Part shown: positions 19,780-63,653 of the stretch, piece by piece
Numbering within the stretch: the stretch's first letter is position 1
Layout of the letters: every line of letters starts with the position of its first letter
Assembly: GCA_045604965.1 (NCBI GenBank)
Contig: JAZUPB010000035.1
Span: 54,774 to 118,773, forward strand
Length of the DNA: 64,000 nt
From: Acutalibacteraceae bacterium
GTDB taxonomy: Bacteria > Bacillota > Clostridia > Oscillospirales > Acutalibacteraceae
Direction: 5' to 3'
Notes under the pieces: generated by a model
Told to the model about the DNA's origin: nothing
Database searches by the model: none
The model's input: only the letters and a program-made list of their open reading frames with translations
Made by a program: the position numbers and the translations under genes

Positions 19780-21063
19780 TTATTTCCTGTTTGATGGTTT
19801 TTGAGCTGTTCGTTCGATTATCGCTTTTGTTCTGCTCGAATCGCAGAAACCGTCCCAGTACCATTCGACACTGTCATAGCGGTAATCAAAGCCTATGTAC
19901 TCATTCTCTGCTTCTTCCTCTTCATTTTCATACTCAGCGTCTTCATCGTCATTCGTCACCATAAAGCTGAGCGTCTTCTTTTCTTCATCGATTTTAAATC
20001 CGCTGATTATATTGCAATATCCCATTTCAATCTGCTCTGCTTCTTTTTCGGCATCTCCTGCCAAAAACTCGGCATTTCTAAGCACCATAAGTACATTCCA
20101 GTATGTTTTTGAAATATCATCAGAGGCTTCGGCGTTGGTCATATAGATAAACACATCTGAGCCTTTTCGTTCAATTGCAGATGTATCGGAAAAATTCGGT
20201 TTGAGCATAATGCCCTCTTTTGTTTCTGCGTATTCCGCAGTGTCTGTACTTTTCTTTGCCTTGTAAGTATATTTTACATTCACAAGCTCAGTAAATCTTG
20301 TTTTTGAAAGAGAATTGAGCACTGTTCGCAGTGTACTGCCGTTCTTTTCGTTTATATCAAACTGAGAAAACGGTACAAGTATAAGCCTGTCATAATGCTT
20401 CGGATAGTCGAAACCATACTTTTTGCTGAGATATTCTCCTGTTACCTTATAACATTTTACACTCTTTCCAAGAGCATTTTCCTTCTTCAGGAGATTTGCC
20501 ATAAAGGACTTGTCAAGCTCCCAGTATTCTTCGTCATATACGTGAACAAAATCGCCGTACATAGAATCAAGCAGGTCCGAATCTTCTCCGGACATAACCT
20601 CAAAATATTTATCCGTTTTCTTTATTCTGTAAAATGCTCTTAAATTGGCATCGTCACGAACTGCAATCATATAAATCATTATTCCTAAGGTCATCAAAAA
20701 CACGCCGAAAAAATAATAATCAAGAAGATGTACAAACACTATAGGCCATATCGGCATCATAAGAATTATGATTATCCAGTAAACTGAATTGAATTTCGTT
20801 TTGGACATATATTGCAGTGCTATATACCGGACTGCTTCCACAGGGTAATTCTTTTCTTTTTTTCCTTTTACTGCAAGGGCAATTATCCCTGCAACTGCGG
20901 CTATTACAAACATAGCTATACTGCCGATGCCAAGCAGTCCGACTATGGCGTACTGCCAGTCCCACTGAAGGTTTTCCATTACGGAGATTACTCCCGAAAC
21001 ACCCATCATTTCGAACGCTATGAGAAACAATAGAGCTATGGGATGTTTTTTGATTACCTTCAT
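19780..21063 (-). CDS. hypothetical polytopic membrane protein with acidic C-terminal low-complexity tail
   Basis: 427-aa ORF overlapping the upstream esterase gene by 4 nt. Confidence 0.5.
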   Translation of the reverse strand: MKVIKKHPIALLFLIAFEMMGVSGVISVMENLQWDWQYAIVGLLGIGSIAMFVIAAVAGIIALAVKGKKEKNYPVEAVRYIALQYMSKTKFNSVYWIIIILMMPIWPIVFVHLLDYYFFGVFLMTLGIMIYMIAVRDDANLRAFYRIKKTDKYFEVMSGEDSDLLDSMYGDFVHVYDEEYWELDKSFMANLLKKENALGKSVKCYKVTGEYLSKKYGFDYPKHYDRLILVPFSQFDINEKNGSTLRTVLNSLSKTRFTELVNVKYTYKAKKSTDTAEYAETKEGIMLKPNFSDTSAIERKGSDVFIYMTNAEASDDISKTYWNVLMVLRNAEFLAGDAEKEAEQIEMGYCNIISGFKIDEEKKTLSFMVTNDDEDAEYENEEEEAENEYIGFDYRYDSVEWYWDGFCDSSRTKAIIERTAQKPSNRK

Positions 21064-21893: not shown

Positions 21894-22002
21894 AATGATT
21901 CCTTTTTGTTTTTTCTCTTTTATTATACTTTTAACTTTTGCTGCAGGCAATATTAAATTCAATATTAATAAAGCTCTCCCCGGAAAACAGGGAGAGCTTC
22001 GA

Positions 22003-23232
22003 TTATTCTTTCGGCAGACTTTGAATATATTTATGCATCGCTTCTGCGACTTTTTTGCTGTGATTTACTGCCTCAACCACATTGCGCGCTCCGTTTACAA
22101 CATCTCCTGACGCAAATATTCCGGGGCGGCTGGTCTGTCCGTTTTCATCTGCCACCAGAAGTCCGCGTGTATTGGTATCGAGCCCTGTGGTGGTTGTGAC
22201 AATAGTATTCTGAGGCCCCTGACTTATTGATATTATTACACTGTCTGCCTTATACAGCTTATCGCTGCCCTCTATATCTGTTATATTCTGATCTTCATCC
22301 TCAAGAAGATCTCGGAATATTACTCCCTCGTCAACTATTTCCACCGGACGCTTGTTGTATTCAAATTTAACACCCTCAAGCTGTGCATATCTGAACTCGT
22401 GTGTGCTTGCGGCAACTTCCTTCCTCAGCGAAAAGCAGGTGATATCCTGCACACCCTTCCTCAGTGCCGTTCTCGCAACATCCATCGCCGCGTTTCCTGC
22501 TCCGATGACGATTACCTTTTCACCAAGCTTGTAACTGTCAGGATTATTAAGATAATTGATACCGAAATGGACATTTCCGAAAGTCTCGCCCTTAATGTGC
22601 AATGCATTGGGCTTCCATATGCCTGTGCCTATGAATATTGCCTTATATCCGTCTCTGAAAAGATCATCAATCCCTATTGCAGTACCGATTCTGGTGTTTG
22701 GGCGTATTTTGATTCCTTTTAGCTCAAGGTGACGGTACTGTATATCATCAAGCACCGATTTCGGCAGCCTGAATTCGGGAATTCCATATCGCAGTATTCC
22801 GCCTATCTTATCGTTGCTCTCAAATATCGTAACCTGATAGCCATAGCGAGCCATAAGAATTGCAATTGTTATACCTGCAGGACCCGATCCAACAATCGCT
22901 ACCTTTATTCCATTTGAGGGATGAGGTCCGTTGGTCATCTTAGGTGCATATGCGCCGGAAACATAACTTTCTATTGTTGAAAAATGAACAGGTGCACCCT
23001 TTTTTCCCAGCACACAATGCCCTTCACACTGTTTTTCGTGGTCGCATATGAGACTGCATACCGTTGTCAAAGGATTGTTTTCAAAAAGCAGCCAACCTGC
23101 CTCATTCAGTTTGTTTTCTTTCAGAAGTCTGATGACTTCAGGTATCGGTGTGTTTATCGGGCAGCCCTTCTGACACTGCGGATTCTTGCAGCCAAGACAG
23201 CGGTTTGCCTCGTCCATAACGTGGAGCGCCAT
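22003..23232 (-). CDS. GltD-like (glutamate synthase small-subunit family) NAD(P)H-dependent Fe-S flavoprotein oxidoreductase
   Basis: 409-aa ORF with N-terminal Cys clusters (CLGCKNPQCQKGCP, C…C…C), then an FAD/NAD dinucleotide-binding GSGPAG motif. Confidence 0.75.
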   Translation of the reverse strand: MALHVMDEANRCLGCKNPQCQKGCPINTPIPEVIRLLKENKLNEAGWLLFENNPLTTVCSLICDHEKQCEGHCVLGKKGAPVHFSTIESYVSGAYAPKMTNGPHPSNGIKVAIVGSGPAGITIAILMARYGYQVTIFESNDKIGGILRYGIPEFRLPKSVLDDIQYRHLELKGIKIRPNTRIGTAIGIDDLFRDGYKAIFIGTGIWKPNALHIKGETFGNVHFGINYLNNPDSYKLGEKVIVIGAGNAAMDVARTALRKGVQDITCFSLRKEVAASTHEFRYAQLEGVKFEYNKRPVEIVDEGVIFRDLLEDEDQNITDIEGSDKLYKADSVIISISQGPQNTIVTTTTGLDTNTRGLLVADENGQTSRPGIFASGDVVNGARNVVEAVNHSKKVAEAMHKYIQSLPKE

Positions 23233-23339
23233 ATTCTTTGCCTCCCAGTATTTTTTACATTGTTATTTTAACCATATTTTTCTCCTCATTCAATGCACAA
23301 TACGGCTGCGCATATTACGTTTCAGTTCTTTTTGCAAGA

Positions 23340-23372
23340 AAACGGAAGGCATTTTACTGCTGCCTTCCGTTT
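23340..23372 (-). terminator. intrinsic terminator closing the methyltransferase operon
   Basis: GGAAGGCA…TGCCTTCC hairpin followed by GUUUU on the minus strand. Confidence 0.55.
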
Positions 23373-23376
23373 TCTG

Positions 23377-24264
23377 TTATCTGATTTTTTCCAGAACATC
23401 TGCAAATTTTTCGTAATTAACCTTAACTCCGTCGTCAAGGTCAATTTCGATTTTCTGCTCTGCAAGGCAAAGCAGTTTTTCATCAAACTGCTTTGCCTCA
23501 TAAAATTGTTCTTCCAGCTTTATCATCTGTTTTTTGGTCTTGTTTTTCTCTGAGCTTGATACATTCTCAACCGAATTACTTTTATTTGCTGCCTGCATAC
23601 TTAAATACGCCAGACGTCTGCAGACATATTCTTTATGCATTCGTTCCGGCAGGTCATTTTTATATCGGTGCATATAAACGAGCGCTTTGAATCCGTTTTT
23701 TCTGCCCGACGAAAACATCCAATATATTGGTCGTTTCTGATATGTTTTAACGTGATCCGCATAAAAGGTGTTCAGAAAATAACAGCGTATCACCTCGCGC
23801 GGTGTCCCTTTTCCTTCCAGCCCGTCAGCGATAAAACTGAGGTTTTCTTCCAGTGTTTCGCTTCCGTAAACTGTCTCGACCCACTTTATAAAGTGTTCTG
23901 TTATATCATTTTCAAAACATTCATCGTCGCATATGGGAATGATATTATCCTTTACAGGAATTACCGTCTTATATCTGCTTATATCCCACTCTCCGCCTGC
24001 ATATATAACCCCTTCTTCGTCAAGGGAATATCTGCCGAATATACAGCCCACTGCATAGGATATCAGCGATTTTATCTCACGCTGAAGATGTGCTCTGCGC
24101 ACAGTGATATATTTATCCTCCACCTCAGGTGCAAGCTCATCTTCCAGTCCGTACAGATCTATAAATATACGGTTGAGTTCTTCTTCATTTTCCTTGAGGC
24201 GCTCGAAACGCTCTTCGCATTGTTTTTCCCATTCTCTGTATTTATCTGCTATCAGCCGTGCCAT
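23377..24264 (-). CDS. stand-alone protein resembling the C-terminal domain of PglX / Type IIG Eco57I-family enzymes
   Basis: 295-aa ORF with its own RBS (GAGGTGA) and ATG. It lies in the same frame as MTase A, separated by TGA followed by a further TAG and two more TGA codons. The central motif RPIYWMFSSGRKNGFKALVYMHRY recalls C-terminal regions of full-length PglX-like proteins. This rests on memory and inference, not a search. Confidence 0.5.
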   Translation of the reverse strand: MARLIADKYREWEKQCEERFERLKENEEELNRIFIDLYGLEDELAPEVEDKYITVRRAHLQREIKSLISYAVGCIFGRYSLDEEGVIYAGGEWDISRYKTVIPVKDNIIPICDDECFENDITEHFIKWVETVYGSETLEENLSFIADGLEGKGTPREVIRCYFLNTFYADHVKTYQKRPIYWMFSSGRKNGFKALVYMHRYKNDLPERMHKEYVCRRLAYLSMQAANKSNSVENVSSSEKNKTKKQMIKLEEQFYEAKQFDEKLLCLAEQKIEIDLDDGVKVNYEKFADVLEKIR

Positions 24265-24288
24265 TCATTCACCTCATTCCTAATTTAG

Positions 24289-26793
24289 TCAGACAAGCGG
24301 ATGCCTTTTGAAATCCCAGGAGGTTTCAAAGAAATCCCAATCTGATTTTGATATTTCTATATTTTCTTCTGTTATTCTGTAAACGGTATCCTTTACATCT
24401 TCATTATACACAACAGGCAGAGATGCTATTTGTCCTCCCTCATAATTGAGAGTGGGAGAAAGTGATGCAGCAACAACCTCCGCTACTGATGAATTCAAAA
24501 AGCCCATCATATATCGCAAATCGTATTTTTGAGCAAAGTAACAGGCTCCTGCTACATCAAAAATACAGCCTGTCTTGTATCTGAAAGAAATTTTTCCTGT
24601 ACTGATCTTTGACCAGGAGGCACAGGGTCTGAAATAATACTCCGTGTTCGGCACAGTGGAACGAATCCGTCCTCTTTCATCTGCAAAATTTTTTATTTCC
24701 TTTCCGCCGTCCTTCCAGTACAGCACATAATCATTATTGCCATACCATTTGCGAAAGGTACCTCCCTTATTGTACGGCACCCAGTATCCCGACCTTGAGT
24801 CAAGATCCTCCTGAGATACAGCGTCAAAGACACATATCTCCTTTTTCACTTCAAACCAGTATCTTACAAACCGCGCATTTTCTCCTGTTGTCATACCGAG
24901 GCGGGTGACTCCTGTATCACTGAGCTTCGGGCATTTTTCAAGTTTTTCCAGTATATTGCCGCTTACCCAATAAGCAACAAGTGAACCGGGGATCTTTGAA
25001 AAATCCGAACATTTTGACACAAATCGTTCTTTGCCTGACAGGAACATTTCCTCTTTGGCTTGCTGAGACGAAGGCTCTGTCAGACGGCAGTAGGTCCCCT
25101 TATAATTTTCAATTTGTGCATTTCTTATTACGAACCCTGCGGTCTGCACAACCTCTCCGCTTATTCCCTCAAATGCTTTTGCTCCGAGGTGAAGCATATT
25201 TACAATTGTTTTCCTCAGTAGCTTGGCTCTCAGCTTTTCGTAGCTGGACAAAAACATCCACGTATGCTGTGTGAGCATCGAGAGATAACCGTTTTCGTCT
25301 GTCATTTCGGCACACCGCTCGATAAACGCGGCAAAAAGATCGCTTTTACTGTCAGGGTAATTCTTTTTTGTGAACCTGCAGAGTTTTGTGCTCATACCGC
25401 CTGCACCCATATACGGCGGATTTGTTATTACAATATGATATTTATCCTCAAGCATTTTTGCCTGTTTCAAAATGTGTCTCAATTCATTGAGCTTCAACTG
25501 ATATTCATTGTCGGGTTCATCATCGATAGTTATCTTTTCCGCAAAATCATAAATCAGTTCGTGATTTATATTCTTTACCCGTATAAGGCATCCGTACTCC
25601 TTTGCCTCGGCAAACGCTTCTGCGATTTTTTCAAGTTCAGATTTTATCCTTTTATTTTTTCCTGCGGCAGAGATGATAAAATTTTTATCAATAAAAGACG
25701 AATCCTTTACGGCAATTATGTTTGTCTGTAATTTTTCACCGAGAATGCTCCGGTCATATTGACAGGCTTTCATCATAACCGAAAAATATGCCAGCTGACC
25801 TGCTCGGTCATCAATGTCCAATCCGTAAAGATTGTTTTCCAGAATCGATCTTACTGCATCCTTCTTTGTCCGCCCTGCTGACAAATATATCTGCATAAGC
25901 ACGTCAAATGCATACGTCAGTATCTGCCCTGAACCTGCACAGGGATCTATAATTTTTATATTTTCCGGCACAAGAGCAGGCATCTTTTCTCGTATTTCTT
26001 CGAGTCTTCTGCACACGGCCGCTTCCTGCTCTGCATTGTCAACATAGTATTTCCATTCCAGTCTGAGCTTGTCGTTGGGGTTATTTTCCAGCCACAGGCA
26101 GCCAAGCGAGTTTTCCACCATATACCGCACTATCCAATCAGGAGTAAAAAGCTGCGTTGCCGACGGAAGCCGTTCTTTACTTATTTTTATGTTTTTCTTA
26201 AGCAGTGCAAATGTCTCATCCTTAAGTTCTGAATTGTAATACTGATAAAGCCATCCTATTATTTGCACCCTGTCAACCCAGTCTTCCTCAGGTATTTCTG
26301 CTGCCATTCGTCCAATTACGCTGTCCTGAATAAGTAGATTATCCGGCATCAGAATCTCAAGCCAGCCGGGGATTTTTTCGAACATATACGGAAGGCTCTC
26401 ATTAAGAGCATTGCATCGGGAAATCAAGTGATATTTGAATAACCTTTCACGTTCTGTTTTCTCTGCCTCTTTCGGAATTTCCGGGTCAAATGCGCCCTTT
26501 TCGTCTGTAAAAAGACGTTTTCCTAATGGAAACAACTCATTTTTTTCCATATACATAAGAGCTGTAAACCGAATAAACCAGGCGCAGGCGGCTTCCTCCA
26601 TCACCTGTGTGTATCCATTGACTGCTATTCTTTCTGCAAGCTGTATGAGCTTTGCATTTTCACCGTCAGAAAATAGCTGTTCATCCGATGCAATATCTTC
26701 AGTTATTCCGTACAGCGCCGCCCTTTGCTTTACTTTGCAAAGCAGCTGACTTCGCGCACGCACTGCAAATTTTTTAATTGCCGCTTTATTCAT
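24289..26793 (-). CDS. PglX / Eco57I-family gamma-class N6-adenine DNA methyltransferase, copy A, lacking the usual C-terminal domain
   Basis: 834-aa ORF. It has an N-terminal MNKAAIKKFAVRAR… helical module and a SAM-binding motif (IIDPCAGSGQIL). The catalytic motif IV is VITNPPYMGAGG. It ends …ETSWDFKRHPLV-stop. Confidence 0.8.
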   Translation of the reverse strand: MNKAAIKKFAVRARSQLLCKVKQRAALYGITEDIASDEQLFSDGENAKLIQLAERIAVNGYTQVMEEAACAWFIRFTALMYMEKNELFPLGKRLFTDEKGAFDPEIPKEAEKTERERLFKYHLISRCNALNESLPYMFEKIPGWLEILMPDNLLIQDSVIGRMAAEIPEEDWVDRVQIIGWLYQYYNSELKDETFALLKKNIKISKERLPSATQLFTPDWIVRYMVENSLGCLWLENNPNDKLRLEWKYYVDNAEQEAAVCRRLEEIREKMPALVPENIKIIDPCAGSGQILTYAFDVLMQIYLSAGRTKKDAVRSILENNLYGLDIDDRAGQLAYFSVMMKACQYDRSILGEKLQTNIIAVKDSSFIDKNFIISAAGKNKRIKSELEKIAEAFAEAKEYGCLIRVKNINHELIYDFAEKITIDDEPDNEYQLKLNELRHILKQAKMLEDKYHIVITNPPYMGAGGMSTKLCRFTKKNYPDSKSDLFAAFIERCAEMTDENGYLSMLTQHTWMFLSSYEKLRAKLLRKTIVNMLHLGAKAFEGISGEVVQTAGFVIRNAQIENYKGTYCRLTEPSSQQAKEEMFLSGKERFVSKCSDFSKIPGSLVAYWVSGNILEKLEKCPKLSDTGVTRLGMTTGENARFVRYWFEVKKEICVFDAVSQEDLDSRSGYWVPYNKGGTFRKWYGNNDYVLYWKDGGKEIKNFADERGRIRSTVPNTEYYFRPCASWSKISTGKISFRYKTGCIFDVAGACYFAQKYDLRYMMGFLNSSVAEVVAASLSPTLNYEGGQIASLPVVYNEDVKDTVYRITEENIEISKSDWDFFETSWDFKRHPLV

Positions 26794-26831
26794 ACATCTT
26801 TACCTTTCTGACGGAATATTTGCTATTCTAC

Positions 26832-29273
26832 CTATATCAGAGGATGCCTCTTGAAATCCCAGGAGGTTTCAAAGCAGTCCCAATCTTCTTTTGACAACTC
26901 TGTGTTTTCTTCTGCAATATGACCTGCCTTTTCCTCACATCCGAAAAGCACAGGCATATTTTTAATGTTTCCTGCCTGAAAATTCATAGTGGGATTCAGC
27001 ATTTCAAGTATGTATCCGCTTACCTTGGATGACAGAAGTGCCAGCAGATAATGCAGATTTTCCCTGTCTGTAAACATCTGCGAGCCGGCAACATCAAAGA
27101 CTGATCCAAATGGCCTGTAACGCACCCCGAAATTTGACGAGCTTATAAATGTCCAGGTTATTCCTTCTCTGAAATAACTGCTGTATCCACCGTTTTCACG
27201 GTATCCCGGTGTTGCCTTCATCTTCGCTCTGCCTTCTTTATCATACCAAACAATCTCTCTGAGATTGCCGTACCAGAGTCTGTAATCTCCGCCTTTATTA
27301 TAAGGAAACCATTTCCCCTCGCTTCTATCAAGACCGCTTACATGGGAAAGTGAAAAGTCGATTTTGTCTTTTTGCACCTCCCACCACCGGCGTACAAACA
27401 CATCATTTTTGCCTGTGCCCATACCGATTTTCACCTCAGCAATATCGCTCAGGCGTTTCTCTTTTCTGAAAACATCCGTAATTTTTTCATTTGCCCAATA
27501 CGCAATAGGACAGCCCGGTATATTCAAAAAGGCACCCTGTCTTATTTCGTAAAGATACGGACAGTTTTTTTCTTTCAGCGCCTGCTTCAGCTTTTGCTCC
27601 TGTGTTTTCATACCGCCTTTGAATTGGGCAAGGCGTATAAACAGGGATTTTTCCGTATGTTTCCCATTGTTCATAACAAACGCACACACAGGAACTGCCG
27701 CGTCCTCAAATGCCGAGTACTCCATCTGGGTAAGAGTAACAATAAATTTATTTTCTATTATGTATCTTCGCAGATTTTCATAGGATTTTATAAACATCCA
27801 CACCATCGGAGTCATAAATCCTGTGTATCCGTTTTCGATGCAAAAATCAAAGCATCTGATCATAAACACACTGAACAGATCGCCGGAAAATTGTCTATAC
27901 TCGGAGCTAATATATTCTCTCAGGCCAGTGTCATATTTATTAAGATACGGGGGATTTGTGCACACTAAGGTATATTTCTGTGACAGGATTTTTGCCTGGT
28001 ATGCCATATGTCTGAGCTTCGGCATAAAATATTCTTTCCATTGTGTGAACTCTTCACTTTCAAAATTACATTCTGCACAATGTTCCAGATAGTTTATAAA
28101 TTCGGTATAATTTCTGTCCTCAATTTTAATCAGTGAACCGATTTCCTTTGCGTTCTCAAATGCTGCTTCCAGGTATTTACCTGTATTATTCAGCGCTTTA
28201 TCCGGCATAAATCCTTCATTCGTCAACGTTTCATCAGTATTGCTTTCCTTTATTGACAGAAGATTTGGCTGTATTTCTTTTTCAAGGAATTTACTGTCCG
28301 CAGCAAGTGCTTTCATCATCACCGCAAAGCAGGCAAGCTGAAAGCATCTGTCATCTATATCAGTGCCGAAAAGATTGTTTTTTACTATCTCGGCTGCGGC
28401 TTCACAAGCACTGTATCCGCACTCTTTGTATATTTCCATAAGCACGTCGAATGCATATACAAGAATATGTCCGCTGCCCATACAGGGATCAAAAAATGTA
28501 AGATTCTTTGGATTTACATCCTCATTCACAAATCGGATATCACCCGATTTCGGTACGGTAAAATAATGAAGCTTTTCTCTCAGTCTGCTTTTCGGATTGC
28601 GCTCTATCCAATATCTTCCGAGCGAGTTATCCACTATATATTTAACTATCCACTCGGGTGTAAAAAGCTGTGTGGCCGCAGGAATATCATCTTTTTTTAC
28701 TGTACCTTTATATATATTTACAATGCTGTTGTGCTCTTGTGAGATGTAGTACTGATAGAGCCAGCCAATGATCTCTACGCCTTCCGTCCAATCTTCCTCT
28801 GCAGTTTCTCTTACTATTCTGCTCGGCATACTGTTTTCTCCAAGGAGATTTTCAGGAATAAGGAGCTCTGTCCAATCAGGTTCTTTCTCAAATATATGCG
28901 GAAGTTTTGCGCCCAGCGCCCTGTATCGGGATATCAGCAGATATTTATACAGTTCTTCGTTATCCTGTTTTCTATCGCCGTCAAACAGTCTCACTTCATT
29001 CGGCAAAAATCCATTTATCTCCATAAAATAAAGAGCGGCAAATCTGATAAACCATATATACGCGGCTTCTTCAACAACTTGGTTATAGCCCTTTTCTTTT
29101 ATTTTGCCGAAAATTTGACTGCGCAATTTTTCTTCCGCTTTTGAAAGGTTTATTTCCGATGTGATATATTCCGCATTTTCAGTTATTCCGCATCTGTATG
29201 CCCTTTTTCTTATATCCTCGGTCATTTGTTGCCGTGCCCGCACGGCAAAGCTTTTTAACGCATTTTTATTCAT
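26832..29273 (-). CDS. PglX / Eco57I-family gamma-class N6-adenine DNA methyltransferase, copy B (paralog of A, roughly 40% identity by eye)
   Basis: 813-aa ORF with the same architecture: MNKNALKSFAVRAR…, FFDPCMGSGHIL, LVCTNPPYLNKYD. It ends …ETSWDFKRHPLI-stop. RBS AGGAAG. Confidence 0.8.
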   Translation of the reverse strand: MNKNALKSFAVRARQQMTEDIRKRAYRCGITENAEYITSEINLSKAEEKLRSQIFGKIKEKGYNQVVEEAAYIWFIRFAALYFMEINGFLPNEVRLFDGDRKQDNEELYKYLLISRYRALGAKLPHIFEKEPDWTELLIPENLLGENSMPSRIVRETAEEDWTEGVEIIGWLYQYYISQEHNSIVNIYKGTVKKDDIPAATQLFTPEWIVKYIVDNSLGRYWIERNPKSRLREKLHYFTVPKSGDIRFVNEDVNPKNLTFFDPCMGSGHILVYAFDVLMEIYKECGYSACEAAAEIVKNNLFGTDIDDRCFQLACFAVMMKALAADSKFLEKEIQPNLLSIKESNTDETLTNEGFMPDKALNNTGKYLEAAFENAKEIGSLIKIEDRNYTEFINYLEHCAECNFESEEFTQWKEYFMPKLRHMAYQAKILSQKYTLVCTNPPYLNKYDTGLREYISSEYRQFSGDLFSVFMIRCFDFCIENGYTGFMTPMVWMFIKSYENLRRYIIENKFIVTLTQMEYSAFEDAAVPVCAFVMNNGKHTEKSLFIRLAQFKGGMKTQEQKLKQALKEKNCPYLYEIRQGAFLNIPGCPIAYWANEKITDVFRKEKRLSDIAEVKIGMGTGKNDVFVRRWWEVQKDKIDFSLSHVSGLDRSEGKWFPYNKGGDYRLWYGNLREIVWYDKEGRAKMKATPGYRENGGYSSYFREGITWTFISSSNFGVRYRPFGSVFDVAGSQMFTDRENLHYLLALLSSKVSGYILEMLNPTMNFQAGNIKNMPVLFGCEEKAGHIAEENTELSKEDWDCFETSWDFKRHPLI

Positions 29274-29302
29274 TATCTGTCTTCCTGTCCCGATACCGGC
29301 AT

Positions 29303-29340
29303 ATTATATCAAAGCTGTTTATCCACACTGAGTTTGTTTT
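29303..29340 (-). promoter_or_regulatory. extended -10 promoter (TGATATAAT) upstream of MTase copy B
   Basis: The reverse complement of 29303-29311 is TGATATAAT, about 30 nt upstream of the copy B start. The -35 element is weak. Confidence 0.4.
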
Positions 29341-29386
29341 TAATCGTATTAAATTATCATACATTAATTTTATTTGTCTTTCAATA

Positions 29387-29416
29387 GCAAAAGCCCGAAG
29401 CAAAAAGCTCCGAGCC
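29387..29416 (-). terminator. intrinsic terminator after yolD-like gene
   Basis: The minus-strand RNA reads GGCUCGGAGC-UUUUU-GCUUCGGGCU (10-bp stem with two G·U pairs) followed by UUUUGCU. Confidence 0.45.
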
Positions 29417-29420
29417 TTAC

Positions 29421-29852
29421 TCAGTTTATTATTCCGAGAAGCATATCGCTCTCAATTTCCAGAATATCATCAACATCTATTTTATCTCCGTTGGTCAAAT
29501 ACATTATTCTCTTATATTCATTTATGCCCTTTAGTTTACCGCTTGCCTTGACATATTCGCCGCCGAACTTCATTTTGTCGTAAACAAAATATGTCACGGA
29601 AATCTGCGGCTGTGCTTCGGGCATTTCCGTGAGAATTCGCAATTTTGAATCCAACAGAGCTTTTGCATCTTCATCAAGCTCTATTTTTCTTGTTGTGAGT
29701 CTTGCTGTTTCATTTATTGCCGCACCGTGCCCTGTAAGTGCCGCAAAGGGCGAAAACTGCGCCGCTCGGTCAATTGGCGCCATTCTCGGATGCCTCTCTG
29801 ACGTATGGTGCGGAAGATTGATTATATCTTCGTACGATTTACTGCTGTTCAT
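29421..29852 (-). CDS. YolD-like protein (UmuD functional analogue partnering Y-family polymerases)
   Basis: 143-aa ORF directly downstream of the Y-family polymerase gene (14-nt gap). Its size and position are typical of the YolD family. Confidence 0.6.
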   Translation of the reverse strand: MNSSKSYEDIINLPHHTSERHPRMAPIDRAAQFSPFAALTGHGAAINETARLTTRKIELDEDAKALLDSKLRILTEMPEAQPQISVTYFVYDKMKFGGEYVKASGKLKGINEYKRIMYLTNGDKIDVDDILEIESDMLLGIIN

Positions 29853-29866
29853 AATATTTTCCTTTT

Positions 29867-31390
29867 CTACGCCTTGTGTCCGCCTATCTGTTTGTTCCTT
29901 TGGGCGGCAGTAGCATCCTCCTGAAGATTCATTCCTTTTAGAATAGAGTTTTTTCCGAAACGTCTTTTTATCGTCAGCATAGCTTTCTGCATATTCTTTT
30001 CTTTTTCAAGAGCAGCTCTTTTCTCTTCTTCCTGTTTTTGCCGTACTTCGTAATCAGTAAACAGATCAAGCTGATGAAACTCTGCAGGCCTTAATGCAGC
30101 AGCTTCGTCCACTACGTTATTTGCAGTAATATTAAGCCTTCTGACAAGAAGCTTCTTATCGGTTATTCTCTCATACAGCTCTGATGCCGCCTTTATTATT
30201 TCCTTTGCTGATGAAGTTTTCCCTTCGAGATTTATCGTCCCGTGTGCATGTTTAGGTATTTTTCTGCCGTAATGATCTGTGGTTATTGCACCTTTGTATT
30301 CGCTCTTTCTCTGAGGATCTGTCAGGTTTTCTATATCGTACCCGATTGTTATTACTATCTGATCCGTTACAAGTCCTTTGTCAACAAGATCCAGGGCAAG
30401 CTGATCTGCCATTTCCCTAATTATCAGATTCGCTTTATCATAGGTGTACGGACACTGCAGTACCTGTCCCGAGCCTATACTGTTTGTGGTCGGTTTATAT
30501 GCTTTTATTTCCGCTATGGTACAGGGCTCCCATCCCCAGGCGTGATCTATTAGAAGCTCTGCATTTACTCCGAACAGTCGGTAAAGAAGTTCTTCGTTAT
30601 AGAATTCATTTGCCTTTCCTATCGAGCAGCGCGCTATATCTCCCATAGTGTACAAGCCGTGTTCCTCAAGCTTCTTTGCATACCCTCTTCCCACTCTCCA
30701 GAAATCGGTCAGCGGTCTGTGTGTCCATAGCGTACGGCGGTAGCTCATTTCATCAAGCTCGGCTATACGCACTCCGTTTTCATCTGCCGGAACGTGTTTT
30801 GCAACTATGTCCATTGCAATCTTACAAAGATACATATTTGTTCCAACTCCTGCAGCTGCGGTTATTCCCGTATGTGCCATAACATCAAGTATCATCTTCA
30901 TTGCAAGCTCACGTCCGGTCAATCCGTAAGTCGCCAGATAATCTGTAGCGTCAATGAACACTTCATCTATAGAGTAGACGTGAATATCTTCCGCTGAAAC
31001 ATATTTTAGATACACCTTATATATAATGGTGCTGTATTCTATGTAGTGTGCCATTCTCGGCGGTGCTGCAATATAGTCTATGGCAAGCTGAGGGTTTGCC
31101 TTGAGCTCTGTGTCACTGCAGGACGACCCTGTAAATACTTTTTCCGGCGCTTTCTGACGACGCTCGGCATTTGCTGCTCTGACTGTCTGTACCACCTCAA
31201 AAAGACGTGCTCTGCCCGATATTCCGTAAGCTTTCAGTGACGGCGACACCGCAAGACATATAGTCTTTTCCGTTCGGCTTTCATCTGCTACAACCAGATT
31301 TGTGGTCATAGGATCAAGTCCTCGATTGATACACTCCACCGAAGCGTAAAATGATTTTAAATCGATCGCAATATACGTTCTGTTTTTCAC
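29867..31390 (-). CDS. Y-family (UmuC/DinB/ImpB-type) translesion DNA polymerase
   Basis: 507-aa ORF with N-terminal IAIDLKSFYASVE and catalytic Asp/Glu palm motifs (SIDEVFID), then little-finger and C-terminal regions. Confidence 0.85.
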   Translation of the reverse strand: MKNRTYIAIDLKSFYASVECINRGLDPMTTNLVVADESRTEKTICLAVSPSLKAYGISGRARLFEVVQTVRAANAERRQKAPEKVFTGSSCSDTELKANPQLAIDYIAAPPRMAHYIEYSTIIYKVYLKYVSAEDIHVYSIDEVFIDATDYLATYGLTGRELAMKMILDVMAHTGITAAAGVGTNMYLCKIAMDIVAKHVPADENGVRIAELDEMSYRRTLWTHRPLTDFWRVGRGYAKKLEEHGLYTMGDIARCSIGKANEFYNEELLYRLFGVNAELLIDHAWGWEPCTIAEIKAYKPTTNSIGSGQVLQCPYTYDKANLIIREMADQLALDLVDKGLVTDQIVITIGYDIENLTDPQRKSEYKGAITTDHYGRKIPKHAHGTINLEGKTSSAKEIIKAASELYERITDKKLLVRRLNITANNVVDEAAALRPAEFHQLDLFTDYEVRQKQEEEKRAALEKEKNMQKAMLTIKRRFGKNSILKGMNLQEDATAAQRNKQIGGHKA

Positions 31391-31451
31391 TCTTCGGCAG
31401 CCTCCTTTATCGATTATTTATAGTGTAACACATCTACATTAATTTGTGAAT

Positions 31452-31465
31452 GGAAAAATCGTACA
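31452..31465 (-). promoter_or_regulatory. LexA (Cheo-type SOS) box upstream of Y-family polymerase operon
   Basis: The minus strand reads CGAACATTTGTACG, against the consensus CGAACRNRYGTTCG (one mismatch). It is palindromic and lies about 62-75 nt upstream of the polymerase ATG. Confidence 0.6.
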
Positions 31466-31586
31466 AATGTTCGCGTTTTTGCTGATTTATTTCCTATAAT
31501 ATTATTCTCTTTGAAACAAACTGATTTTTTGCTATAATATTTTATATCAATACAGGAGCAATGCCGCATTTCTGTTGCGGTCGGTT

Positions 31587-32186: not shown

Positions 32187-33125
32187 ATGAAAAAGCTTAT
32201 GCTTGTTATCAACCCCAACGCAGGCAAGAAAAAGATACGTACCCAGCTTTGCCCTCTTGTTGAGCGACTTTACGAAAACGGTTATATTTCAACTGTATAT
32301 ATTACCGATCCCGTTTTTGGCGCTGCCAAAATAATAGATAACTACTCCGATGAATACGATGTAATTGTCTGCAGCGGCGGTGACGGCACCCTCAATCAGG
32401 TCATAAGCAGACTCATTCGAAAAGATAAGCGTCCGCCTATAGGATACATACCTGCCGGAACTGCAAATGATGTTGCAAAAAGTCTGGATCTTTCAACCGA
32501 CATAATAAAGGCTGCTGATGATATTGTTACAGCAGTTCCCACACCCTTTGATGTCGGCACATTCGGAAGCTCCAATTTTATCTATATCGCTTCCTTCGGC
32601 GCTTTTACCGAAGCCTCCTACTCTACTCCTCAGATTCAGAAAAATGCACTGGGGCATTTTGCATACGTATTGCAAGGACTCAAGAGCGTTCAGAATATCA
32701 AGTCATATCACGTGAAAATTGAAACTGAAAACGCTGTTTACGAGGATGACTACGTTTTTGGTGCTATGATCAACTCTTTTTCATTTGCAGGTATGTTCAA
32801 GCTGGATAAAAACGAGGTCGTTTTTGATGACGGTATGTTTGAGGTTATGCTTATAAAAACTCCGCGAACCATAACTCAGCTTCAGAACGCCGCAGTTTCA
32901 CTGCTTTCAAAAAAATATGACGATCAGTATGTTACCTTCTTTCATGCATCAAAGCTTAAGGTAACCTGCAATGAGCCTATTGCGTGGACCACTGACGGAG
33001 AGTTTGGCGATGTTTATAAATCGGTATCTCTTTCAGTCCACAAACAGGCAGTTCAGCTTCTTCTCAAAGACGGCACTTTCCTCGGCGGACTCAAACCATC
33101 CGAGCAGGAATCAATTACCGAATAA
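32187..33125 (+). CDS. diacylglycerol/lipid kinase family protein (DagK/YegS-like)
   Basis: RBS GGAGGTGA precedes the ATG at 32187. Motifs: LVINPNAGKK and CSGGDGTLNQV. Confidence 0.8.
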   Translation: MKKLMLVINPNAGKKKIRTQLCPLVERLYENGYISTVYITDPVFGAAKIIDNYSDEYDVIVCSGGDGTLNQVISRLIRKDKRPPIGYIPAGTANDVAKSLDLSTDIIKAADDIVTAVPTPFDVGTFGSSNFIYIASFGAFTEASYSTPQIQKNALGHFAYVLQGLKSVQNIKSYHVKIETENAVYEDDYVFGAMINSFSFAGMFKLDKNEVVFDDGMFEVMLIKTPRTITQLQNAAVSLLSKKYDDQYVTFFHASKLKVTCNEPIAWTTDGEFGDVYKSVSLSVHKQAVQLLLKDGTFLGGLKPSEQESITE

Positions 33126-33165
33126 CAAAACGGAATGCAGTATCTTTTCTGCGTTCCGTTTTTCT

Positions 33166-33203
33166 TATGAAAAAACGCATCGGAATTATATTCCGATGCG
33201 TTT
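33166..33203. terminator. bidirectional terminator between convergent dagK-like and PBP genes
   Basis: AACGCATCGGAAT / ATTCCGATGCGTT 13-bp perfect inverted repeat flanked by an A-run and a T-run. A second hairpin lies at 33128-33163. Confidence 0.6.
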
Positions 33204-33209
33204 TCTGCG

Positions 33210-36065: not shown

Positions 36066-36180
36066 TGCAGTTTCGCCTCCTTCAATATCGGATAAGGCTT
36101 TTGTCCATCTTTTCTTTGAATAAAGCCTGTTATGGGGTGTCAAAATAAAATAAATACAAAACAGAAAGGACTGTTAGACT

Positions 36181-61940: not shown

Positions 61941-63653
61941 TTACTTAAGGCTGTTCTCGTAGCTCTCGATCATCTTCTTGAAGGTGTGTCCTGTACGACC
62001 TTCGAGAATTGTACCCTCTCCTGCGGCTACACTAAGCCGTTTTTGCAGTCTGTCAAGGAATCTCTGGGACACCTCGCCGGTGAACACCTTGATGTTCAGC
62101 ACCGCCCGTCCGTCATCGTCAATGGTGACGAATATCCTGTCAATATATTCCTCCACAAACTGGCGGGTGATGAGTCCGTTCTGTGCGTCCCGTTCGGCGT
62201 GCTTCAGCACCGAACGCAGCCGCTCGATGTGTTCGCGCAGTTCGCCCCGGGAATCGTTCTCGGCGGTCAGTTCGGCTATGCGCTGCTCGGCGGCGGCGAT
62301 CTCGTCGTTGCACTCGCCGCTCTGGGCAATGAACTGGGCATCGGTTATCATTCCGCTGACATTGTATTCCAGCAGCTTGGAGCGCTTTTTCTGCGCCATA
62401 TCGATGCGCTGCTGCTGTACCGCTATTGCCGCGCTGATGTCGCCGCCCTGATTGAGGCTTCTGTACATCTCCACATACTCGGCGATGAGAGCTTCAGCGC
62501 TTGCCGAGGTGTCTCGGAACACATCCAGCAGAACGGGGATTATCTCCTTTTCGTATATGGGAAATGTGGGGCAGTAATCCTTGCCGTTCTTTATCTTGCC
62601 CGAACACACCCACTTGGAGTTCTTATTGCCCTGCCTATCCACACTGTCGCGGCGATAGAACGCAGTGCCGCAATGGGTACAGAACAGCTTGCCGGTGAGT
62701 AGGTTGCCGTGGTTGCACTGATTCTGCCGCCGCTTTACATCAAGGCTTCGTCTGGCAAGTACGGCATTGGCTTTCTCCCACAGCTCCTCGCTGACGATGG
62801 CAGGCACGATCTCGCCGCTCTCGTCCTTGAACATAACCCATTCCTCCGGCGGCAGGAACTTCTGCTTCTTGGTAAACATATCCACAATCTGTACTTTTCC
62901 GCCCACATAATACCCTTTGTATTTGGGGTTGGCAATGGTATTGCTCATGGTGGAATGGCTGATGCGGTTGCCGTTGTGGTTGCGGTAGCCTCGTTCCCAG
63001 AAGATGTCCTCGATCTGCTTCATGGAGTACTCGTCGGTGGCGTACAGCTCGAACAGTTCGCGCACCATGGGCGCTTCGCTCTCGTCGATAACCAGCCTGC
63101 CGTCCTTTTTTACATAGCCGAAGATGCGGCTGTTGCCCAGCACCACCGACTTTTTGATGGCCTCGGCGTGCCCGAACTTGATTCGGCTGGAAAGTTTTCT
63201 CAGCTCGTCCTGAGCGATACCCGACATGATGGTCAGCCGCAGCTCCGAGTCCTCATCGAGGGTGTTGATGTTGTCATTCTGGAAGAACACACCGACGCCG
63301 CTGGCAAGAAGCCGACGGGTGAACTGTATGGAATCGAGGGTATTTCGGGCAAATCGGCTGATCTCCTTGGTAATAATAAGATCGAACAGACCAGCCTCAG
63401 CATCGTCCACCATGCGGTGAAAATTCTCGCGCTTGGCGGTGGTCATGGCGGAAAGTCCCTCGTCCACATAGCCGTCAACATATGTCCAGTTGGGATTCTT
63501 CTTTATCAGGTCGGTGTAATAGGTGACCTGATTGTCCAGCGAGTTGAGCTGTGCGTCCTTTTCGGTGGACACACGGGCGTAGAAGGTCACTCGCAGAGGA
63601 ATTTCGTAGATGTTTTTCAGCCGCAGTTCACGGCGTATTTCATGGATGTCCAT
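61941..63653 (-). mobile_element. large serine recombinase (resolvase domain + recombinase domain + zinc ribbon) gene, higher G+C than surroundings
   Basis: 570-aa ORF with an N-terminal resolvase catalytic region (YARVSTEKDAQ…SLDNQ), recombinase and Zn-ribbon (C…C…C…C) domains, and a C-terminal coiled coil. The GC is visibly elevated by eye relative to the window. Confidence 0.8.

What the first reader, a model, noticed from the sequence alone, without database searches (positions are those of the whole stretch)
23377..29273. Tandem PglX/Eco57I-family m6A methyltransferase paralogs truncated at the same motif, plus a separately encoded C-terminal-domain gene; no nuclease or BREX partners
The sequence shows one minus-strand operon with its own extended -10 promoter and a closing terminator. 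It encodes two diverged gamma-class N6-adenine MTases, B at 29273-26832 and A at 26793-24289. They are roughly 40% identical by eye. Both have the characteristic PglX-type N-terminus (MNK.A.K.FAVRAR…), a SAM motif and NPPY. Both terminate at exactly the same place, …E(E)N.E.SK.DWD.FETSWDFKRHPL-stop. A follows B after a 38-nt gap and has its own RBS. A 295-aa gene at 24264-23377 follows A after a 24-nt spacer. That spacer contains four stop codons (TGA, TAG, TGA, TGA) and a good RBS (GAGGTGA). The 295-aa gene is in the same frame as A and resembles the C-terminal domain that full-length PglX / Type IIG proteins (about 1100-1200 aa) carry fused. So the canonical single polypeptide appears split into an MTase-TRD module and a C-terminal module, with the MTase-TRD module duplicated and diverged. 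Because both copies stop at the same residue and the split gene has its own RBS, this looks like a designed subunit architecture and not a nonsense-mutated pseudogene. One reading is two alternative specificity/catalytic subunits sharing one C-terminal partner. There is no brxA/B/C, pglZ, brxL, restriction endonuclease domain or recombinase in the window. It is therefore neither a BREX locus nor a classical Type IIG enzyme. Two possibilities follow. It could be a minimal or novel defence or epigenetic module. Alternatively, direct-repeat recombination between the conserved 3' ends could switch specificity. Such recombination would delete copy A and place copy B upstream of the C-terminal gene.
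Basis: partly seen in the sequence, partly recalled or inferred. Interest (0 to 1): 0.8.

Follow-up and report, generated by a model that had tools for sequence, protein, structure and literature searches.

The report
Split BREX methyltransferase without BREX partners
This operon encodes a BREX-type DNA adenine methyltransferase (PglX) naturally divided into two alternative catalytic/target-recognition subunits and one shared C-terminal subunit, kept intact by selection at the same chromosomal site in related gut bacteria although the BREX partner proteins this enzyme is thought to need are not encoded nearby.

Summary
B (26832-29273), A (24289-26793) and C (23377-24264) are on the minus strand. 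A and B are 39% identical. On the 1210-position BREX-1 PglX profile, A covers 1-899 and C covers 906-1209.

This is not a pseudogene. In about 18 species every split N-module ends at the same residue (…SWDF..HPL-stop). By homology to solved PglX/BrxX structures, that residue lies between the two "spacer" helices. Most relatives sit inside complete BREX-1 loci, and several of those also have two N-modules and one C.

The window's locus has no BREX partners. The same cassette occupies the same chromosomal site in at least three other species:
- BrxC–N–N–C
- N–C
- N followed by a re-fused N·C, made by a 1-nt deletion in the stop codon

The promoter is conserved and dN/dS is about 0.06-0.15. Paired N-modules differ mainly in the target-recognition domain.

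Best reading: two alternative MTase–TRD subunits share one C-terminal subunit, in a form derived from BREX. Whether it methylates without BrxB, BrxC and PglZ is untested.

A split PglX was reported once before (Brevibacterium casei, PMC9881135). I therefore call this a new variant of a known kind.

The parts
29356..29384 (-). Promoter-like site, -35 TTGAAA, 17 nt, -10 TATGAT; conserved in the syntenic orphan loci
   Evidence: Consensus scan. Alignment of the upstream regions of the window, L086, L090 and L093 shows the TTG(A/C)A.-17-TAT(G/T)AT block in all four, including L093 where the upstream gene differs.
29303..29311 (-).
   Evidence: Read directly from the sequence. Absent from the aligned relatives.
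26832..29273 (-). Gene B: PglX N-module (helical NTD + gamma-class N6-adenine MTase + TRD + first spacer helix), 813 aa. Motif I DPCMGSG at aa 262 (nt 28490-28470); NPPY at aa 440 (nt 27956-27945)
   Evidence: ORF. NCBIfam BREX_1_MTaseX 836.8 bits, cutoff 500, ending at profile position 899. PADLOC PglX 866 bits. Motifs. Orthologues in L086 (58%), L090 and L093 (57%).
26794..26831 (-). 38-nt B-A spacer with a weak RBS (AAAGG) upstream of A's ATG
   Evidence: Sequence read.
24289..26793 (-). Gene A: second, diverged PglX N-module, 834 aa. Motif I DPCAGSG at aa 283 (nt 25947-25927); NPPY at aa 458 (nt 25422-25411)
   Evidence: ORF. NCBIfam 906.7 bits, profile 1-899. Aligns to Salmonella PglX 8C45 residues 5-885, E 4e-162. 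Orthologue L086 N2 is 65% identical, against 39% to B.
24265..24288 (-). 24-nt A-C spacer with three further in-frame stops and the RBS GAGGTGA
   Evidence: Sequence read. A homologous spacer with RBS is present in L086, L090 and L093.
23377..24264 (-). Gene C: standalone PglX C-terminal subunit (second spacer helix + C-terminal globular domain), 295 aa
   Evidence: NCBIfam profile 906-1209, E 1e-107. E. coli BrxX 942-1194, E 1e-54. The AF2 model has a long helix at residues 2-38 (low pLDDT) followed by a confident globular domain. Top database hits are almost all 295-aa proteins, 64-67% identical.
23337..23375 (-). Intrinsic terminator closing the operon (15-bp stem, then UUUUCUUGC)
   Evidence: RNA fold: ΔG -24.2 kcal/mol, z -7.9, 0 of 200 shuffles as stable.
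29410..29424 (-). Terminator-like hairpin of the upstream 143-aa gene; it separates that gene from the PglX operon
   Evidence: Consensus scan.

Best explanation
The locus is a three-gene operon for a naturally split BREX-type-1 PglX N6-adenine DNA methyltransferase.

B and A each carry the helical N-terminal domain, the gamma-class MTase domain, a target-recognition domain (TRD) and the first of PglX's two long "spacer" helices. C carries the second spacer helix and the C-terminal globular domain.

Proposed mechanism: C pairs non-covalently with the tail helix of either N-module and rebuilds the two-helix bundle of single-chain PglX. This would give two holoenzymes, B·C and A·C, with different DNA specificities.

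The cassette descends from BREX-1. In this lineage it has been reduced to the methyltransferase alone, and selection has kept it. I therefore think it most likely works as a stand-alone two-motif m6A modification module. It could alternatively depend on BREX core proteins encoded elsewhere in the genome.

Shown here: the gene anatomy, family membership, position of the break point, conservation of the split and of the orphan cassette, purifying selection, and TRD-focused divergence of paired N-modules.

Inferred: N·C assembly through the helices, sharing of C by both N-modules, distinct motifs, and catalytic activity without BrxB, BrxC and PglZ.
For: 1. **Family and anatomy.** A covers profile positions 1-899 and C covers 906-1209 of BREX_1_MTaseX. 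GxG and NPPY motifs are intact. A aligns to residues 5-885 of Salmonella PglX and C to residues ~890/942-1194 of E. coli BrxX. Published domain maps put two long spacer helices at residues 850-960, said to mimic the dimerised spacers of Type I HsdS (PMC11341690). The break therefore falls between helix 1 and helix 2.
2. **Fixed break point.** All split N-modules in about 18 species end at …ETSWDF..HPL[IVT]-stop with intact motifs. 71 of the top 120 homologues of A are about 820-890 aa, and nearly all top homologues of C are 295 aa.
3. **Split and fused forms interconvert.** The L093 fused gene equals the split spacer with 1 nt deleted from the stop codon (…HPLI-CCTAGEK-MARLIE…), with the RBS and ATG retained.
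4. **N-modules outnumber C in several loci.** This holds for the window, L086, L033, L084 and L095/96, and in L093 and L087 a free N-module sits beside a fused PglX.
5. **Paired N-modules differ mainly in the TRD.** L033: NTD 0.95, MTD 0.84, TRD 0.39. L087: 0.97, 0.75, 0.37. L095: 0.92, 0.53, 0.41. Window: 0.49, 0.38, 0.32, with the tail at 0.63.
6. **The orphan cassette is maintained.** The same site holds it in L086, L090-92 and L093. A↔N2 is 65%, B↔N1 is 58% and A↔B is 39%, so the duplication predates speciation. dN/dS is 0.11, 0.11 and 0.06, and 0.13 for L090_N versus L093_N where dS is 0.92. The promoter is conserved. No BREX remnants are present.
7. **C alone.** Its predicted N-terminal helix (2-38) has low confidence while the rest is confident, as expected if that helix needs a partner.
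Against: - In every type-1 BREX tested, PglX/BrxX alone does not methylate. BrxB, BrxC and PglZ are required (PMC11842806 and PMC13326643). None of these is in the window, so autonomous activity has no precedent in this family.
- N·C assembly was not modelled or measured.
- In L093, C is fused to the A-type module, which leaves the B-type module without an obvious free C unless internal initiation occurs.
- The test for extra similarity of the two tails within a locus was weak (0.65 versus 0.57) and the loci are not independent.
- The rest of the genome could not be searched for a BREX core.
- Two ligands of the CTD metal site are replaced in this subclade (D997V and D1012N, E. coli numbering), with unknown consequence.
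Confidence: 0.55

Rival explanations
1. Extra specificity modules acting in trans. The cassette is catalytically dependent on a BREX-1 core (BrxB, BrxC, PglZ) encoded elsewhere in the genome. It would add one or two extra recognition specificities to that system.
For: All tested PglX enzymes need BrxB, BrxC and PglZ. BREX-1 is very common in this bacterial group. The closest syntenic relative keeps an intact brxC in the same operon (Walker A present, full length). Complete BREX-1 loci with two N-modules and one C exist.
Against: BREX loci are variable islands, whereas the orphan cassette sits at a fixed housekeeping site in four species. Three of the four have no linked BREX gene and no remnants. 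No information on the rest of any of these genomes was obtainable.
Confidence: 0.25
2. Decaying remnant of a BREX-1 locus. The genes are leftover fragments on the way to loss, with no current function.
For: No PglZ, BrxA, BrxB or BrxL in the window. The series L086 (brxC+N+N+C), window (N+N+C), L090 (N+C) looks like stepwise reduction. PglX is inactive alone in model systems. Two metal-site ligands in C are substituted.
Against: Three long ORFs are intact in four species at 56-67% amino-acid identity. dN/dS is 0.06-0.15. The promoter, RBSs and terminator are conserved. Catalytic motifs are intact. True decay in other lineages looks different, with truncated or frameshifted fragments (L034, L041, L045, L055, L071, L080). 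The metal-site variant also occurs in complete BREX-1 loci (L015, L036, L037).
Confidence: 0.1
3. Recombinational specificity switch. Recombination between the conserved 3' ends of B and A deletes A and puts B next to C, or gene conversion shuffles TRDs, giving population heterogeneity.
For: The 3' ends share a 95-nt stretch at 79% identity. L090 has exactly the predicted B-type N + conserved tail + A→C-type spacer + C. Programmed rearrangements of pglX are documented elsewhere (PMC9881135).
Against: The longest exact match is only 24 nt. The copies are direct repeats, so the event is an irreversible deletion. There are no inverted repeats better than 27 nt at 70%, and no recombinase within about 33 kb. 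B does not need to be adjacent to C to be expressed. L090 may equally be the ancestral state.
Confidence: 0.07
4. B does not use C. Only A, the gene next to C, pairs with it. B is an independent C-less methyltransferase or a regulatory or inactive paralogue.
For: In L093, C is fused to the A-type module and the B-type module stands alone. The within-locus tail similarity test was weak.
Against: In L090 the only N-module is B-type and it is directly followed by C. B keeps the same conserved tail helix ending at the same residue. The L093 fusion keeps the RBS and ATG, so it could still yield free C.
Confidence: 0.15

Closest known systems
BREX type 1 PglX/BrxX (E. coli HS BrxX, PDB 9EWZ; Salmonella PglX, PDB 8C45)
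   Same: Same protein family over its full length (A + C covers profile positions 1-1209). Same domain order: NTD, MTase, TRD, spacer helices, CTD. GxG and NPPY motifs are present.
   Different: Encoded as separate polypeptides broken between the two spacer helices. There are two N-modules for one C. No brxA, brxB, brxC, pglZ or brxL is in the neighbourhood. Two of the CTD metal-site ligands are replaced.
Split PglX of the Brevibacterium casei BREX-1 locus (NZ_CP068173.1; Milman et al. 2023, PMC9881135)
   Same: One CDS for the N-terminal and middle parts of PglX and a downstream CDS for the C-terminal part. It was interpreted as splitting the protein where the variable region ends, so that the C-terminus stays constant.
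   Different: There the variation comes from programmed inversions within a complete BREX-1 locus. Here two complete N-modules are co-encoded in the same direction, with no inverted repeats and no invertase, and the BREX core is absent. I did not compare the exact break point of the B. casei gene.
BREX-1 loci of gut Oscillospirales with N-C-N' or N-cargo-C layouts (L033 Ruminococcus sp. XPD3002, L015 R. callidus ATCC 27760, L095/96, L001, L087, L088)
   Same: Same break point, same 295-aa C subunit (60-67% identical), and sometimes two N-modules with one C.
   Different: They are embedded in brxA-brxB-brxC…pglZ-brxL. The order is N-C-N' rather than N-N-C. Small cargo genes often sit between N and C.
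Type I restriction-modification HsdS/HsdM, including half-size HsdS subunits and multiple hsdS genes
   Same: Works alike in principle. Specificity and catalytic functions are assembled from separate subunits held by long coiled-coil spacer helices. The PglX spacer helices were noted to mimic dimerised HsdS spacers (PMC11341690). Alternative specificity subunits can share a common partner.
   Different: No homology to HsdM, HsdS or HsdR was tested or claimed. Here the TRD is on the same chain as the MTase, and the shared subunit is the non-catalytic CTD.
MmeI-type Type IIL/IIG restriction-modification enzymes
   Same: Homologous MTase-TRD core (Pfam MmeI_Mtase and Eco57I hits; PADLOC REase_MTase_IIG model 756-856 bits).
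   Different: No nuclease domain was detected. The N-terminus aligns to the PglX helical bundle. PglX models score higher than Type IIG models.

Membership tests
BREX-1 PglX protein family (NCBIfam NF033452) | Score above the curated cutoff (500 bits) on the PglX profile | tested here: met
   A scores 906.7 bits and B 836.8 bits. C alone scores 361.5 bits, but it covers profile positions 906-1209 contiguously with A's 1-899.
BREX-1 PglX protein family (NCBIfam NF033452) | Gamma-class N6-adenine MTase motifs: motif I GxG and motif IV NPPY | tested here: met
   DPCAGSG and NPPY in A. DPCMGSG and NPPY in B.
BREX-1 PglX protein family (NCBIfam NF033452) | Single polypeptide of about 1150-1225 aa with NTD, MTD, TRD and CTD | tested here: not met
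   It is split into 813/834 aa + 295 aa, with a stop codon and a spacer carrying an RBS. The same split is found in many homologues.
BREX type 1 defence system | pglZ present in the locus | tested here: not met
   No PglZ by Pfam scan of neighbours, by phmmer of all window ORFs of 60 aa or more, or by tblastn.
BREX type 1 defence system | brxC/pglY ATPase present in the locus | tested here: not met
   Absent from the window. Present and intact in the syntenic relative L086.
BREX type 1 defence system | brxA, brxB and brxL present | tested here: not met
   BrxA and BrxB give no hits in the window. No BrxL/Lon-like domain is among the scanned neighbours. The rest of the genome is not testable.
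BREX type 1 defence system | Motif-specific m6A of host DNA and exclusion of unmethylated phage | not testable with these tools
   Needs a methylome and phage assays.
Split, inversion-driven PglX (B. casei type, PMC9881135) | N+middle CDS and a separate downstream C-terminal CDS | tested here: met
.
Split, inversion-driven PglX (B. casei type, PMC9881135) | Inverted repeats or silent inverted cassettes and an adjacent invertase | tested here: not met
   Only weak inverted matches (27 nt or less, 70-94%) scattered over 22000-31500. Both N-modules are in the same orientation. The nearest recombinase is about 33 kb away.
Type IIG/IIL R-M enzyme (MmeI family) | N-terminal endonuclease domain fused to MTase-TRD | tested here: not met
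   Pfam finds only Eco57I, N6_Mtase and MmeI_Mtase domains. Residues 5 onward align to the PglX helical NTD.
DISARM DrmMI | Best match to the DrmMI model and drmA/B/C neighbours | tested here: not met
   The DrmMI model scores 480-645 bits against 866-967 for PglX. Neighbours are housekeeping genes.

The most novel reading that the evidence does not exclude
A BREX-derived PglX has become an autonomous chromosomal epigenetic module. In this reading the split enzyme (B·C and A·C) methylates two different motifs without BrxB, BrxC or PglZ. Separating the C-terminal domain onto its own exchangeable subunit would be what lets several MTase-TRD subunits share it, and might relieve the auto-inhibition proposed for single-chain BrxX.
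Probability: 0.3. Interest if true: 0.75.

Novelty: new variant of a known kind. Interest (0 to 1): 0.6.

Why it matters
PglX/BrxX is the specificity factor of BREX. Two things are unresolved: why it is inactive on its own, and what its C-terminal domain does.

A naturally split PglX with a fixed break point, several N-modules per C subunit, and a lineage that keeps only the methyltransferase part under purifying selection together form a natural dissection of the enzyme. This material allows three direct tests:
- whether the C-terminal domain is a detachable, shareable subunit;
- whether one BREX system can run two specificities at once;
- whether a PglX can work without the BREX core.

It also matters for annotation. 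Such loci are easily called pseudogenes or partial BREX systems, although the split form is common in gut Oscillospirales.

Tried and rejected
- **Source record look-ups failed.** Exact look-ups of the window's own C and A proteins found no contig on record. The cluster look-up gave no names or accessions. I therefore could not identify the source genome or search the rest of it for a BREX core.
- N·C packing therefore rests on homology to solved structures and published domain boundaries.
- **Metal-site loss is not an orphan-specific trait.** I first suspected this for D997V and D1012N. The same substitutions occur in complete BREX-1 loci (L015, L036, L037, L030).
- **Tail co-variation is inconclusive.** Within two-N loci, tail identity is 0.65 versus 0.57 between loci (resampling 0.016). 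The loci share ancestry and the tail is conserved family-wide.
- **Metagenome scan found no further cassettes.** Anchoring on the neighbouring 143-aa gene returned only distant relatives (50-59% identity), and none has a PglX cassette at that position. The number of orphan loci stays at four species-level versions.
- **Programmed read-through or frameshifting rejected.** The window has four in-frame stops, and the C frame differs among relatives.
- **Literature.** Searches found no description of tandem same-direction two-N/one-C PglX or of BREX-less split PglX. The 2026 BREX diversity survey text contains neither "split" nor "orphan". The library lacks most subscription journals.

Full report
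**1. What is in the sequence**

Three minus-strand ORFs lie exactly where the finding says: B at 26832-29273 (813 aa), A at 24289-26793 (834 aa) and C at 23377-24264 (295 aa).

- A and B are 39% identical end to end. Both carry motif I (DPC[AM]GSG) and NPPY.
- Both end at the same point: …SK.DWD.FETSWDFKRHPL[VI]-stop.
- The A/C junction reads GTC TGA CTA AAT TAG GAA TGA GGT GAA TGA ATG. That is A's stop, three more in-frame stops, an RBS (GAGGTGA) and C's start.
- The operon is bounded upstream by the terminator-like hairpin of the preceding gene (29424→29410).
- Two promoter-like sites lie upstream of B: TTGAAA-17-TATGAT at 29384→29356 and TGATATAAT at 29311→29303.
- A strong intrinsic terminator closes the operon at 23375→23337 (ΔG -24.2, z -7.9).

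**2. What the proteins are**

Against NCBIfam's BREX-1 PglX profile (1210 positions), A covers 1-899 (906.7 bits), B ends at 899 (836.8 bits) and C covers 906-1209 (E 1e-107). PADLOC PglX models score higher than the Type IIG and DrmMI models. Pfam finds only MTase-type domains and no nuclease.

A aligns to residues 5-885 of the 1225-aa Salmonella PglX (PDB 8C45, E 4e-162). C aligns to E. coli BrxX (PDB 9EWZ/8ZEK) up to residue 1194.

The published domain map for Salmonella PglX is: helical bundle 1-227, MTase 227-661, TRD 662-849, two long spacer helices 850-960 that mimic dimerised HsdS spacers, and a C-terminal region 961-1225 (PMC11341690). The break at about residue 886 therefore lies between the two spacer helices. 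Each N-module ends with helix 1 and C begins with helix 2.

An AF2 model of C alone gives a long helix at residues 2-38 with low confidence (pLDDT 33-51), followed by a confident globular domain. This is what one expects if that helix needs a partner, but it is not proof.

**3. The split is a conserved architecture**

- The top 120 database relatives of C are almost all standalone 295-aa proteins, 64-67% identical.
- Among the top 120 relatives of A, 71 are about 820-890 aa and 49 are about 1140-1216 aa, by my count.
- I scanned one genome per species with a C alignment and classified 80 loci with my own ORF and phmmer pipeline. In the C alignment built from these loci plus one metagenomic locus (L001), 55 C-parts lie in fused PglX genes and 26 in separate C genes.
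- Every split N-module found ends at the same residue with intact motifs. This covers about 18 species, including Ruminococcus callidus ATCC 27760, Intestinimonas, Pseudoflavonifractor and Gemmiger.
- Nearly all of these loci are canonical BREX-1: brxA-brxB-brxC-pglX…pglZ(-brxL).
- In many BREX-embedded split loci the N…C gap holds one to four unrelated small genes. Examples are a Fic-like HPFREGNGR protein in L008 and DUF559-like proteins in L007 and L050, both identified by eye from motifs. The break point therefore also serves as a cargo insertion site.

**4. More N-modules than C-modules is recurrent**

- Complete BREX-1 loci with N-C-N' occur in L033 (Ruminococcus sp. XPD3002), L084 and L095/L096.
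- L087 has N, a 218-aa gene, C, then a fused PglX.
- Domain-wise identity between the paired N-modules points to alternative specificity:

| Locus | NTD | MTase | TRD |
|---|---|---|---|
| L033 | 0.95 | 0.84 | 0.39 |
| L087 | 0.97 | 0.75 | 0.37 |
| L095 | 0.92 | 0.53 | 0.41 |
| Window | 0.49 | 0.38 | 0.32 |

- The window's pair is older. Its tail is the best-conserved segment, at 0.63 in the last 35 aligned residues.

**5. The window's locus is a conserved cassette without BREX partners**

No BREX partner is present in the 64 kb. The neighbours are housekeeping genes: a Y-family polymerase, a 143-aa gene, a gltD-like oxidoreductase, an esterase, ilvD, GH3 enzymes, MPG, DAGK and PBP1A.

Three further versions occupy the same chromosomal site in other organisms:
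- **L086** (GCA_045536305.1): PolY-143aa-BrxC-N1-N2-C-esterase-429aa-ilvD-GH3.
- **L090-92**: PolY-143aa-N(B-type)-C-gltD-esterase.
- **L093**: SpoIVA-N(B-type)-fused PglX(1077 aa)-gltD-…-esterase.

Evidence that the cassette is maintained:
- Orthology is clear. B↔L086 N1 is 58%, A↔L086 N2 is 65% and C↔C is 67%, against 39-40% across types. The duplication is therefore older than these species. Flanking genes are 80-94% identical.
- Nei-Gojobori dN/dS is 0.11 (A), 0.11 (B) and 0.06 (C). dS is saturated for these three. For L090_N versus L093_N dS is 0.92 and dN/dS is 0.13.
- The promoter block is conserved in all four loci, even where the upstream gene differs.
- BrxC in L086 is full length with a Walker A motif.
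- tblastn finds no BREX remnants in the window, L090 or L093.
- True decay elsewhere looks different, with truncations or frameshifts (L034, L041, L045, L055, L071, L080).

brxC immediately precedes pglX in canonical BREX-1. The simplest history is therefore reduction from a BREX-1 fragment: brxC+pglX first, then pglX only. This ordering is an inference.

**6. Split and fused forms interconvert**

The L093 fused protein reads …HPLI-CCTAGEK-MARLIEDRY…. At the nucleotide level it equals the L090 split spacer with 1 nt deleted from the stop codon, and it retains the RBS and ATG. N and C therefore work as parts of one enzyme. The fused gene at this site is derived from the split form and is not the intact ancestor of a broken gene. 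The reading frame of C relative to the preceding N differs among relatives, and the window has four in-frame stops. Read-through or frameshifting is therefore not the mechanism.

**7. Mechanism proposed**

C binds the tail helix of B or A and rebuilds the two-helix spacer bundle. The resulting B·C and A·C enzymes have different TRDs and so presumably recognise different motifs.

The open question is activity. In all characterised type-1 systems PglX/BrxX alone does not methylate and needs BrxB, BrxC and PglZ (PMC11842806 and PMC13326643). Three readings follow:
- This lineage's enzyme has become autonomous. I favour this, weakly, because of the fixed housekeeping position and the purifying selection in loci with no linked BREX genes.
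- It uses a BREX core encoded elsewhere. I could not test this.
- It has some function other than methylation.

**8. The recombination idea**

The 3' ends of A and B share 95 nt at 79% identity, but only 24 nt match exactly. The repeats are direct, so an exchange would delete A irreversibly. No invertase or meaningful inverted repeat is nearby.

The predicted product does exist as the fixed state in L090: a B-type body, the conserved tail, the A→C-type spacer, then C. This fits a past deletion but equally fits an ancestral single-N state.

**9. Comparison with what is known**

A split PglX was reported once. In Brevibacterium casei, one CDS holds the N-terminal and middle parts and is the target of programmed inversions, and a separate CDS holds the C-terminus. 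The authors read it as splitting the protein where the variable region ends (PMC9881135).

The following were not in the papers I could search:
- the breadth of the split form;
- the universal break point between the spacer helices;
- co-encoded same-direction two-N/one-C sets;
- a conserved BREX-less cassette.

The locus fails the definition of a BREX system because pglZ and brxC are absent. Its proteins nevertheless belong to the BREX-1 PglX family.

**Verdict:** a new variant of a known kind, of moderate to high interest.

Noticed in passing
window 61941-63653 (-): A large serine recombinase (Resolvase + Recombinase + Zn_ribbon_recom domains) sits at the GC-richer end of the window (GC 0.50-0.53 against about 0.42). 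This may be the edge of an integrated element.
   Followed up: no
L001 9388-9966; L008 7735-9997; L007 9642-10013; L050 8723-9109; L012 8659-10013; L020 8971-9991; L087 9344-10000; L088 9660-10001: In BREX-embedded split loci the gap between the PglX N and C genes holds one to four unrelated small genes. They include a Fic-like protein (HPFREGNGR), DUF559-like proteins (ELDGSQHY) and several with no recognisable motif. Some overlap the start of C. The break point acts as a cargo insertion site.
   Followed up: partly
window C residues ~104 and ~121 (nt about 23900-23955); also L086, L090, L093, L006, L015, L030, L036, L037: Two ligands of the BrxX CTD metal site are replaced (E. coli D997→V, D1012→N/Q/T/S/C) in a subclade of C subunits. 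D997 is kept in 53 of 55 fused homologues and D1012 in all 55. The subclade includes complete BREX-1 loci, so the change is not tied to loss of BREX partners.
   Followed up: yes
L141 14863-19764; L148 16446-20395: In two distant relatives of the PolY-143aa gene pair, a full brxA-brxB-brxC begins 4-6 kb downstream. This suggests the neighbourhood may be a recurrent site for BREX.
   Followed up: no
window 19780-21063 (-): The 427-aa protein of unknown function (no Pfam hit, acidic C-terminus) is only 32% identical to its syntenic counterpart in L086, while flanking genes are 80-94% identical. It is evolving unusually fast.
   Followed up: no
P0002 (431 aa, NCBI): A C-subunit homologue contains an internal tandem duplication of about 130 residues (the segment ISYAVGCMFGRYSLD…KRPIYWLFD occurs twice). 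This is either a real duplication or an assembly artefact.
   Followed up: no
L071 7531-10873; L034 9609-10876; L055 9674-10921; L041 8249-16623; L045 5661-6746; L080 8309-10876: These are degraded BREX-1 or PglX loci in other species: a frameshifted PglX at a different position, N-terminally truncated PglX, a BrxA-C chimera and a split PglZ. They make a useful contrast with the clean conserved split.
   Followed up: partly
window 33210-36143 (-) and 32971-33630 (+): The PBP1A homologue ends in a long Thr/Ser-rich low-complexity tail (runs of T). The opposite strand gives a spurious poly-Val ORF.
   Followed up: no
window 22003-23232 (-): The gltD-like oxidoreductase just downstream of C is present in the window, L090 and L093 but absent from L086, where C is followed directly by the esterase. 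The right-hand border of the cassette is therefore variable.
   Followed up: no
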